This document shows, one piece after another, positions 8,330 to 8,457 of a stretch of 64,000 nt of DNA. How positions within the stretch are numbered: the first letter of the stretch is position 1; each line of letters begins with the position of its first letter. The stretch is from the NCBI GenBank assembly GCA_036501625.1, contig DASXZY010000009.1, positions 28,117 through 92,116 on the forward strand. Reading direction: 5' to 3'. The notes under the pieces were generated by a model. It did no database searches. It was not told the DNA's origin and worked only from the letters and a program-made list of their open reading frames with translations. Origin of the DNA: Verrucomicrobiia bacterium (lineage in GTDB: Bacteria > Verrucomicrobiota > Verrucomicrobiia > Limisphaerales > Palsa-1400). The translations under genes were made by a program, and so were the position numbers.

Positions 8330-8457
8330 CCTCACTTTTTGCACTTCTTGGATGGAGGAAAACCAATTGAACCGCGGACTGATTGCGCAAAGGCACGGTT
8401 TGACCCCTTTGACCGTATCAGACCTCTTGAGAAAGCCAAGAAGTGCAAAAAGTGAGG
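8330..8457 (+). repeat. Repeat 'B', copy 2: a 128-nt element with perfect 22-bp terminal inverted repeats (MITE-like or a long structured RNA hairpin). It sits 28 bp after the DUF4157 stop.
   Basis: Left arm cctcactttttgcacttcttgg (8330-8351). Right arm ccaagaagtgcaaaaagtgagg (8436-8457), an exact reverse complement. The core between them equals repeat B copy 1. Confidence 0.8.

What the first reader, a model, noticed from the sequence alone, without database searches (positions are those of the whole stretch)
8330..8457. 128-nt element with perfect 22-bp terminal inverted repeats immediately 3' of the DUF4157 gene; a partial copy lies 2.1 kb upstream
Bases 8330-8351 (cctcactttttgcacttcttgg) are the exact reverse complement of 8436-8457. 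The 84-nt core between them is ~93% identical to 6112-6217 (copy 1), which lacks the left arm. The DUF4157 gene is therefore flanked by direct repeats of ~106 bp. Copy 2 could fold into a very long hairpin (a terminator or a structured sRNA), or it could be a MITE-like mobile element. Each copy is paired with a second short repeat 'A' (5937-5975; 6603-6641) placed 100-135 bp upstream. That suggests an ancestral A-gene-B cassette was duplicated and one gene copy deleted, leaving A1-B1 at 5937-6217.
Basis: seen in the sequence. Interest (0 to 1): 0.55.

Follow-up and report, generated by a model that had tools for sequence, protein, structure and literature searches.

The report
Decayed mini transposon beside DUF4157 gene
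The 128-nt hairpin-like element is the gutted remnant of a tyrosine-transposase mobile element (a RAYT-like "TIRtron") common in soil Verrucomicrobia, so it is ordinary mobile-DNA debris and not a device belonging to the DUF4157 gene.

Summary
Bases 8330-8351 and 8436-8457 are exact inverted repeats (35 nt at 89% when extended), and 6111-6225 matches 8351-8465 at 93%.

The arms are the terminal inverted repeats of a transposable element. In a related metagenome contig (L117) the same arm, GTCAGTCCTCACTTTTTGCAC, lies 42 nt upstream of a 313-aa Y1/HUH tyrosine transposase gene (Pfam Y1_Tnp; closest NCBIfam model REP-associated tyrosine transposase), and its inverted copy overlaps that gene's stop codon.

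The arm consensus occurs in at least 120 metagenome contigs, bracketing either full genes (about 1 kb) or 114-254-nt deletion derivatives. The window's element (really 8317-8470) is one such derivative: the left arm joined to the last ~100 nt of the gene. "Copy 1" is the 3' end of a second wreck that keeps a 22-nt gene-start stump (6039-6060). It sits in a ~515-nt unit repeated on another contig of the same metagenome.

This matches the TIRtron/TIRYT class (Di Nocera 2013). The 36-codon ORF shows no selection. The link to DUF4157 is incidental, and the A-gene-B cassette idea is not supported. Any terminator or mRNA-stabiliser role is possible but untested. It is a new member of a known kind, of low interest.

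The parts
8317..8470 (+). Complete miniature element: left TIR + remnant of transposase gene 3' end + right TIR. It begins 15 nt after the DUF4157 stop codon (8299-8301).
   Evidence: Inverted repeat of 35 nt at 89%; hairpin z -7.5 as RNA and -7.4 as DNA; same design as the metagenome miniatures L089/L056.
8317..8351 (-). Left terminal inverted repeat (IRL).
   Evidence: Identical to the L117 IRL, which lies 42 nt upstream of an intact Y1 transposase gene.
8352..8435 (+). 84-nt core: a diverged remnant of the last ~28 codons of the transposase gene (...LIAQRHGLTPLTVSDLLRK...). It carries a fortuitous 36-codon ORF (8352-8462).
   Evidence: The last 27 nt before the arm are homologous to intact gene 3' ends (0/500 shuffles). 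The upstream 64 nt are only suggestive (20/500). The DNA profile's best hit in the whole window is 8367-8441, E 0.043. Alignment to the C-terminus ...WIAERLHMGSWSNVSNLLRKIKSAKSED. The protein profile test was negative.
8436..8470 (+). Right terminal inverted repeat (IRR). Family core 8443-8463 (2 mismatches). In intact relatives this arm contains the transposase stop codon.
   Evidence: L117 and L065 gene ends.
5704..6225 (+). ~515-nt dispersed unit holding repeat A1, a transposase gene-start stump and B1 ('copy 1'). A second copy lies in L004 (same metagenome, different locus).
   Evidence: Window 5704-6217 vs L004 9752-10265: 516 nt at 91.7%. The rest of the unit was found only in L004 among 122 loci.
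6039..6060 (+). Stump of the transposase gene start (ATGCCGCGTGAACTGCGCATCG = MPRELRI).
   Evidence: 19/22 identical to the L117 gene start, 0/500 shuffles; 19/22 to the L004 mini-element start.
6111..6225 (+). B1 ('copy 1'): the same gene-3'-end remnant with the right arm (core 6203-6223) but no left arm.
   Evidence: 93% identical to 8351-8465; arm detected with 2 mismatches.
5933..5969 (+). Repeat A1, inside the 515-nt unit. Nature unresolved.
6598..6634 (+). Repeat A2, a solo copy 107 nt upstream of the DUF4157 start. It is 94.6% identical to the A copy in L004. Nature unresolved.
6742..8301 (+). Neighbouring host gene, not part of the element: DUF4157/eCIS_core protein with an Aspzincin-like C-terminal region.
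   Evidence: Pfam PF13699, 119.6 bits; NCBI HEY3860769.1, Verrucomicrobiae MAG.

Best explanation
The element (true extent 8317-8470) is a non-autonomous, internally deleted derivative of a RAYT-like Y1 (HUH) tyrosine-transposase element of the 'TIRtron/TIRYT' type, in a Verrucomicrobiae genome. Its two arms are the element's terminal inverted repeats, the presumed cis sites for the transposase. Its core is what remains of the last ~100 nt of the transposase gene, whose stop codon normally lies inside the right arm. 'Copy 1' is the 3' end of a second, differently decayed copy that keeps 22 nt of the gene start and has lost its left arm. The DUF4157 gene simply lies between two such wrecks. Shown: arm identity with intact elements, the family's abundance, the existence of many independent deletion derivatives, and homology of the stump and of the arm-proximal core. 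Inferred: that the arms are bound and cut by the transposase on single-stranded DNA, as in IS200/IS605 and RAYT enzymes; that such miniatures can be mobilised in trans; and that, when transcribed, the hairpin incidentally affects the 3' end of the DUF4157 mRNA.
For: (1) The L004 mini-element has the same arms enclosing MPRQLRIEYAGAIYHALNRGDWREE, 92% identical to the N-terminus of P0125, a PF01797 protein with an HUH motif. (2) L117 has a perfect IRL, 42 nt, a 313-aa ORF, and an IRR overlapping the stop codon. The ORF scores 49.7 bits on Y1_Tnp (cutoff 23); its best NCBIfam model is REP_Tyr_transpos at 47.5 bits, against 18 for IS200. (3) The arm consensus is found in at least 120 metagenome contigs. 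The unspecified flanking bases G and T are present in 89% and 94% of unique sites, so these are true relatives. (4) Convergent arm pairs enclose 967-1068 nt (intact genes) or 114-254 nt (six different deletion derivatives); the window's pair encloses 98 nt. (5) The gene-start stump and the arm-proximal core are homologous to intact genes (0/500 shuffles each; nhmmer top hit). (6) The family comprises 7,994 proteins, named RayT / REP-associated tyrosine transposase, including from Verrucomicrobiota; the window comes from a Verrucomicrobiae MAG. (7) Published class: TIR-flanked RAYT-like genes, TIRs that may overlap the gene's 3' end, the GGGGWSAS motif (L117: GGGGTCAG), and dispersed TIR families (PMC3733652).
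Against: No intact transposase gene is present in the 64-kb window or in the three contigs seen from this organism, so current mobility is unproven. Homology of the upstream two-thirds of the core is weak (20/500 shuffles; the C-terminal protein profile gave no hit). The B core occurs only three times and only in this metagenome, so this particular miniature is not shown to be a multiplying family. No target-site signature was identified. The window's own arm ends fit GGGGWSAS only 7/8 at best. Repeat A and the 5' 330 nt of the 515-nt unit remain unexplained.
Confidence: 0.82

Rival explanations
1. The hairpin is primarily the transcription terminator or 3' mRNA stabiliser of the DUF4157 gene. 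Its resemblance to transposon ends reflects exaptation.
For: It starts 15 nt after the stop codon and folds very stably as RNA (-73.9 kcal/mol, z -7.5). From general knowledge, REP/BIME elements in E. coli stabilise upstream mRNA.
Against: There is no T/U tract after the stem. The terminator scan finds nothing at 8317-8480. An 84-nt loop is atypical for a terminator. The same arms occur in at least 120 unrelated contexts, including around transposase genes. This is compatible only as a side effect, not as the element's identity.
Confidence: 0.1
2. The repeat unit is a small gene: a 36-aa helix-turn-helix-like micro-protein (MEENQLN...SAKSEV) present in two or three copies.
For: Both window copies keep the ATG...TGA frame intact. 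The repeat boundaries coincide with the ORF. There are weak HTH-type Pfam hints (E 0.1-0.15).
Against: Substitutions between copies are mostly non-synonymous (4:2, 3:0, 6:1), and the L004 copy has lost the stop codon and is fused to an upstream frame. An exhaustive search of 1.84 billion proteins found only that one related sequence. The frame is explained as the residual reading frame of the transposase C-terminus.
Confidence: 0.03
3. One reading: an ancestral A-DUF4157-B cassette was duplicated and one gene copy was deleted, leaving A1-B1.
For: A and B each occur on both sides in the same order.
Against: A-B is a contiguous ~515-nt unit at an unrelated locus next to a cytochrome c gene. A transposase start stump, not DUF4157 sequence, lies between A1 and B1. 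No similarity exists between 5970-6110 and the DUF4157 flanks.
Confidence: 0.03
4. The inverted arms 6196-6232 and 8315-8351 (37 nt, 86%), which bracket the 2.1-kb segment containing the DUF4157 gene, act as recombination sites for inversion or cargo capture. The gene would then be a passenger of a composite element.
For: (pair I1). The layout 'arm(+) - host gene - arm(-)' recurs in L004 and L005.
Against: In this layout the outer TIR ends face the cargo (inside-out), which is what two same-orientation insertions in consecutive intergenic regions produce. All three independent assemblies show a single orientation. No recombinase gene is nearby.
Confidence: 0.04

Closest known systems
TIRtrons / TIRYTs (TIR-associated tyrosine transposases; Di Nocera, De Gregorio & Rocco 2013, BMC Genomics 14:522, PMC3733652)
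   Same: In intact relatives, a Y1/HUH transposase related to but longer than classical RAYTs (313 aa) is flanked by long terminal inverted repeats that are not REPs. The 3' TIR overlaps the end of the gene. The TIR outer end GGGGTCAG fits the published GGGGWSAS motif (L117). TIR copies are dispersed as singles, pairs and clusters.
   Different: The window copy has no transposase gene, only a 22-nt start stump in one wreck and about 100 nt of the 3' end in both. Its own arm ends fit GGGGWSAS 7/8 at best. The host is Verrucomicrobiae, whereas the best-defined published group is acidobacterial. I could not compare the protein with the paper's four TIRYT groups.
REPIN-RAYT systems (Bertels & Rainey 2011, PMC3116915; Bertels et al. 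2017, PMC5581495)
   Same: Two inverted copies of a short transposase-associated repeat form a long hairpin of about 100-150 nt with no coding capacity, presumably mobilised in trans by a RAYT-family enzyme. The closest NCBIfam model is REP-associated tyrosine transposase.
   Different: A single arm is not a palindrome and has no GTAG tag. The spacer (84-98 nt) is a gene remnant, not a short linker. The NCBIfam score is below the equivalog cutoff (47.5 vs 80). High within-genome copy number and single-copy RAYT status were not shown.
MITEs (miniature inverted-repeat transposable elements)
   Same: Small (154 nt), with terminal inverted repeats and no transposase, and derived by internal deletion of an autonomous element.
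   Different: The parent is a Y1/HUH element rather than a DDE element. No target-site duplication is visible. This particular miniature is not shown to be multi-copy.
IS200/IS605 insertion sequences
   Same: Same transposase superfamily (Pfam Y1_Tnp; HUH motif NHFHLVVE; Tyr in DYVHLNP).
   Different: IS200/IS605 ends carry subterminal hairpins and lack terminal inverted repeats. Here the TIRs are long, the single ends do not fold, and the IS200 NCBIfam score is only 18 bits (cutoff 55).

Membership tests
TIRtron / TIRYT | A Y1 (HUH) tyrosine transposase gene between the repeats | tested here: not met
   The window holds only remnants: the start stump at 6039-6060 and the 3' ends at B1 and B2. 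The feature is met in relatives with the same arms: L117 (313 aa, PF01797 at 49.7 bits) and L065. The window copy is therefore a derivative, not a complete TIRtron.
TIRtron / TIRYT | Long terminal inverted repeats (not REPs) flanking the unit, which may overlap the gene's 3' end | tested here: met
   Window: 22 nt perfect, 35 nt at 89%. L117: 25 nt perfect, with the IRR containing the stop codon. A single arm is non-palindromic.
TIRtron / TIRYT | TIR motif GGGGWSAS (shared by many, not all, TIRYT TIRs) | tested here: inconclusive
   L117 has GGGGTCAG, which fits. 31 of 132 unique arms fit exactly. The window has GGCGTCAG (IRL), AGTGTCAA and GGTTTCAG (IRRs).
TIRtron / TIRYT | TIRs belong to a dispersed repeat family (singles, dimers, clusters) | tested here: met
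   At least 120 metagenome contigs. There are 155 arms in 122 loci, occurring as singles, convergent pairs, direct pairs and tandem arrays. Three contigs of the source metagenome carry them.
REPIN / RAYT | The repeat unit is a short imperfect palindrome (REP) with a conserved GTAG end | tested here: not met
   A single arm folds at only about -2 kcal/mol as DNA. The arm end is CTGAC/GTCAG, not GTAG.
REPIN / RAYT | The protein reaches the RAYT equivalog model | tested here: not met
   NF047646 scores 47.5 bits against a cutoff of 80. It is still the best-scoring model.
REPIN / RAYT | High copy number of the doublet within one genome together with a single-copy RAYT | not testable with these tools
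   Only the 64-kb window and three contigs of the organism were available.
MITE | Short, TIR-bounded, no transposase | tested here: met
   154 nt, with TIRs, and no ORF related to a complete transposase.
MITE | Target-site duplication and many near-identical copies | tested here: not met
   No direct repeat flanks 8317/8470. The B core was found only 3 times, all in one metagenome.
Intrinsic (Rho-independent) terminator | Compact GC-rich hairpin with a short loop, followed by a T/U tract | tested here: not met
   No site was called at 8317-8480. The loop is 84 nt and the stem is followed by TTTGACACTGG.
Known structured RNA (Rfam) | Match to a covariance model | tested here: not met
   The only hit in 5000-9500 is an unrelated sub-threshold one at 9397-9461.

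The most novel reading that the evidence does not exclude
The near-invariant 21-25-nt arm (AGTGCAAAAAGTGAGGACTGACCC) is kept identical beside transposases that are only 62% identical to each other. It may mark an active, REPIN-like population of hairpin miniatures in soil Verrucomicrobiota, mobilised in trans by long TIRYT enzymes, with cleavage at the terminal CTGAC. The short 'TGAC+N6-8' tandem duplications seen next to many arms would be footprints of that cleavage. This would give TIRYTs, which have never been characterised biochemically, a defined substrate. It might also show that the arms regularly supply 3' hairpins or Shine-Dalgarno-like GAGGA sequences to neighbouring host genes.
Probability: 0.15. 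Interest if true: 0.5.

Novelty: new member of a known kind. Interest (0 to 1): 0.25.

Why it matters
This mainly matters for annotation. The repeats around the DUF4157 (eCIS-type toxin-like) gene are not a regulatory or cassette feature of that gene. They are debris of a widespread tyrosine-transposase element, which also explains why short-read assemblies break at exactly this point. A secondary result is a concrete consensus end sequence, an intact reference copy (L117) and a series of natural deletion derivatives for the poorly studied TIRYT branch of the RAYT/IS200 superfamily. These could be used to test what these enzymes recognise.

Tried and rejected
- Rfam on 5000-9500 at a permissive threshold found nothing relevant.
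- Pfam and NCBIfam on the 36-aa peptides, the 58-aa alternative-frame ORF, the 214-aa minus-strand ORF and the short stumps gave no significant family.
- Diversity-generating retroelement (template/variable repeat): rejected by eye, because the differences between copies are not adenine-specific.
- Integron attC site: considered from memory. There are no R''/R' core sites and no integrase in the neighbourhood. Not pursued.
- The genome-contig scan with AAGAAGTGCAAAAAGTGAGG returned only one unrelated hit, in a Bacillota MAG. In hindsight this 20-mer included lineage-specific bases.
- A protein profile of the C-terminal 60 aa of 119 family members did not detect the B peptide, so the claim that the core is the gene's 3' end rests on DNA-level evidence only.
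- A PDB sequence search with the L117 protein gave no hit.
- Minus-strand coding: the two copies are open in different minus-strand frames (from the coordinates), and the JGI-called 214-aa ORF shrinks to 134 aa in the L004 copy. It is judged spurious.
- Assembly breaks at the element (L002, L003) were considered as evidence of inversion or heterogeneity. They are better explained by identical 30-mers in the repeats.
- Repeat A and the first ~330 nt of the 515-nt unit have no match outside L004 and remain unexplained.

Full report
OBSERVATION. The sequence is as described. Bases 8330-8351 are the exact reverse complement of 8436-8457, and the inverted repeat extends to 35 nt at 89% (8317-8351 / 8436-8470). 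The 22-mer occurs three times in the 64-kb window (6196-6217 +, 8330-8351 -, 8436-8457 +), against none in 100 shuffles. Positions 6111-6225 and 8351-8465 are 93% identical over 115 nt. The similarity begins at an ATG and fades about 10-15 nt after an in-frame TGA. Repeat A (5933-5969 / 6598-6634) is 37 nt at 86%. No other copies exist in the window. The layout is reproduced in an independent Logan assembly, whose 2,269-nt contig starts and ends in the identical 30-mer of the two right arms (L003). A JGI contig matches the window up to 8414 and then ends in a messy duplicated tail inside the element (L002). This is ordinary assembler behaviour at repeats.

FIRST LEADS. The region lies just downstream of dnaA (3295-4662) and an ABC ATPase gene. 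The flanked gene is a DUF4157/eCIS_core protein. No Rfam family matches. As a single strand the element folds into a long hairpin, with z -7.5 as RNA and -7.4 as DNA. The 84-nt core alone is no more structured than its shuffles (z -0.5). No T-tract follows the stem, and the terminator scan calls nothing there. Both direct copies contain an intact 36-codon ORF, MEENQLN[R/H]GLI[A/V]QRHGLTPLT[V/A]SDLLRKPRSAKSE[V/A]*.

THE TURNING POINT. An exhaustive search of 1.84 billion proteins with the 36-aa peptide found one relative, P0121. It lies on another contig of the same metagenome (L004). There, a 516-nt stretch is 91.7% identical to window 5704-6217. 'Copy 1' and repeat A1 therefore belong to a ~515-nt dispersed unit. 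In L004 that unit sits immediately upstream of a multihaem cytochrome c gene, not a DUF4157 gene. Directly after the cytochrome gene is a second inverted-repeat element with the same arm sequence (L004 12060-12242). Between those arms lies ATG...MPRQLRIEYAGAIYHALNRGDWREE. A database search with a labelled probe matched this fragment at 92% identity to P0125, a protein carrying Pfam PF01797 (Y1_Tnp) and an HUH motif. It also matched P0126, a 75-aa stump on a third contig of the same metagenome (L005), where a left arm lies about 40 nt upstream of the ATG.

THE FAMILY. The two bases 5' of the pattern, which were not specified, are G and T in 89% and 94% of the 131 unique sites, and CC follows the pattern. 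Essentially all matches are therefore true relatives. Conservation inside the pattern itself is by construction and says nothing. L117 holds an apparently complete element:
- a 25-nt perfect TIR, GGGGTCAGTCCTCACTTTTTGCACT;
- 42 nt of leader;
- a 313-aa ORF (MPRQLRIEYKGAIYH...NHFHLVVETP...DYVHLNPVRA...WIAARLRMGSWSHVSNLLSAARKEKCKK*);
- the inverted TIR overlapping the stop codon.

The protein scores 49.7 bits on Y1_Tnp (cutoff 23). Its best NCBIfam model is REP-associated tyrosine transposase (47.5 bits, below the equivalog cutoff of 80), against 18 bits for IS200. It has 7,994 relatives at E <= 1e-10 among the 8,000 candidates scored, named 'REP element-mobilizing transposase RayT' or 'REP-associated tyrosine transposase [Verrucomicrobiota bacterium]'. 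The window itself comes from a Verrucomicrobiae MAG. Across 122 loci, convergent arm pairs enclose either 967-1068 nt (intact genes) or 114-254 nt. The short ones are different internal deletions:
- L004: N-terminal 25 codons plus the last 40 nt;
- L052: 45 N-terminal plus 25 C-terminal codons;
- L082/L120: 5' leader plus 3' end;
- L089/L056: left arm fused to the last ~65 codons, which is the window's design.

WHAT THE WINDOW PIECES ARE. The left arm core 8324-8344 is identical to the family consensus, and the right arm cores (8443-8463, 6203-6223) differ from it at 2 positions. The 27 nt in front of the right arm are homologous to intact gene 3' ends (0/500 shuffles). A DNA profile of intact 3' ends with the arm removed gives its best hit in the whole window at 8367-8441, collinear and abutting the arm, at E 0.043 for the 64-kb search. 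The upstream 64 nt are only suggestive (20/500). Their best match is GATTGCGCAA[A/C]GGC, the '(W)IAQR' codons, at a collinear position. By alignment, the peptide LIAQR-HGLTPLTVSDLLRKPRSAKSEV corresponds to WIAERLHMGSWSNVSNLLRKIKSAKSED*. A protein profile of 119 C-termini did not detect it, however, so this part of the argument is probable rather than proven. Positions 6039-6060 (ATGCCGCGTGAACTGCGCATCG, MPRELRI) match the L117 start at 19/22 (0/500 shuffles). The 36-codon ORF shows no purifying selection: non-synonymous to synonymous codon changes are 4:2, 3:0 and 6:1, and the L004 copy has lost its stop codon. It is best read as the leftover frame of the transposase C-terminus.

MECHANISM. Shown: the arms are the termini of a Y1-transposase element, and the window's element is a transposase-less deletion derivative of it. 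Inferred from what is established for HUH/Y1 enzymes (IS200/IS605 TnpA; E. coli TnpA-REP acting on REPs): the transposase recognises the arms on single-stranded DNA and cuts near the conserved outer end (...GGACTGAC), so TIR-bearing miniatures could be mobilised in trans. No intact gene was seen in this organism's available sequence, so this copy may be immobile. When transcribed from the DUF4157 promoter, the 35-bp stem would form at the mRNA 3' end, beginning 15 nt after the stop codon. It could impede exonucleases or polymerase, as REP elements do in E. coli. That is an untested side effect.

COMPARISON WITH THE KNOWN. Di Nocera et al. 2013 (PMC3733652) defined TIRtrons. These are RAYT-like tyrosine transposase genes (TIRYTs) flanked by long TIRs unrelated to REPs, sometimes overlapping the gene's 3' end. 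Many share the motif GGGGWSAS, and their TIR families occur as singles, dimers or clusters. TIRYTs differ from RAYTs in length and sequence signatures. L117 fits on every point tested (GGGGTCAG; 313 aa; 3' overlap). 31 of 132 unique arms fit the motif exactly, and the window's arms fit 7/8 at best. The element is not a classical REPIN (Bertels & Rainey; PMC3116915, PMC5581495): a single arm is not palindromic, there is no GTAG, and the RAYT equivalog threshold is not reached. It behaves like a MITE in being small, TIR-bounded and derived by deletion. It lacks a target-site duplication and is not shown to be multi-copy.

VERDICT. This is a new member of a known kind. Interest is low, except as a clean entry point (consensus end, intact reference copy, natural deletion series) into the uncharacterised TIRYT branch. 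Unexplained remainders are repeat A, the 5' 330 nt of the 515-nt unit, and why the same unit-plus-miniature pair brackets a host gene at two loci (window and L004).

Noticed in passing
L100, L082, L027, L030, L115, L068, L072, L043 (arm 3' flanks as listed); window 8463-8490: Immediately outside the terminal ...CTGAC of many arms there are short tandem duplications of the form TGAC+N6-8 (for example TGACACCCGCATGACACCCGCATG, and ACCGGCA repeats). The window has CTCCGGCTCCGGCT after the right arm. These could be footprints of repeated cleavage and rejoining at the element end.
   Followed up: no
L027 9672-10024; L006 180-564; L043 1108-1156: Arms also occur in tandem arrays with identical upstream context: 167-nt unit x3 in L027, 366-nt unit x2 in L006, and 30-nt spacing in L043. 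This means direct as well as inverted arrangements.
   Followed up: partly
L117 417-458: The 42-nt leader between the left TIR and the transposase ATG reads TTGACA-17 nt-TAAGAG and ends 6 nt before the ATG. This may be a promoter giving a leaderless transcript. Related leaders in other loci keep GTCAA/TTGAC at the same place.
   Followed up: no
L065 vs L117 gene ends: Family members terminate in two different frames inside the same conserved arm...SAKSED* using the TGA of GACTGA, and ...KCKK* using the TGA of AAGTGA. The arm's nucleotide sequence is therefore conserved independently of how it is translated.
   Followed up: partly
L005 4170-4230 and L004 12335-12380: The 75-aa transposase stump in L005 is fused to a segment (GTCGCGGTTCTCTTTTTACTCGCGCTCGCCGGTATCGCGGCCTTGCT) that in L004 encodes the signal-peptide start of the gene just downstream of the mini-element. 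This suggests recombination between element-adjacent regions.
   Followed up: no
window 5933-5969 and 6598-6634 (repeat A): By eye, repeat A1 (AATGCAAGAGATGAGTTTTGA) matches the arm consensus AGTGCAAAAAGTGAGGACTGA at 14/21 positions in the same orientation, so it might be a very decayed arm. A2 matches only about 11/21. Repeat A occurs only in the window and L004.
   Followed up: partly
window 3295-5649 and 5650-6740: dnaA is followed by an ABC-transporter ATPase gene and not by dnaN. The AT-richer intergenic stretch downstream contains DnaA-box-like sequences (TTATCCGGA near 5789; TTATCCACT on the minus strand at about 6644-6652). The replication origin may be close by.
   Followed up: no
window 8517-8792 (+): A 91-codon ORF ends ...NLTPPVSWTPQAANTLTGRILNFTNVTSSPQGFYRTRFVQ*. 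From memory this resembles the C-terminal tail of large PVC surface proteins, so it may be a gene fragment. It has no Pfam hit.
   Followed up: partly
window 5742-6386 (-): JGI called a 214-aa gene here that covers the whole 515-nt repeat unit. It has no Pfam hit, and the equivalent ORF in the L004 copy is only 134 aa. It is probably a spurious call.
   Followed up: yes
window 6363-6542 (+): A small ORF encodes a hydrophobic 59-aa protein (MPKIRTNHRWVFSLVLALVGGPLIYVFL...) between B1 and the DUF4157 gene. It has no family hit. Whether it is a partner of the DUF4157 protein, for example an immunity protein, is unknown.
   Followed up: partly
L002 11640-11718 (corresponds to window ~8400-8414 onward): The JGI contig ends with a 35-nt segment of the element core duplicated and carrying one base difference (AAAGGTACGG vs AAAGGCACGG in the window). 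This is either an assembler artefact or a population variant.
   Followed up: no
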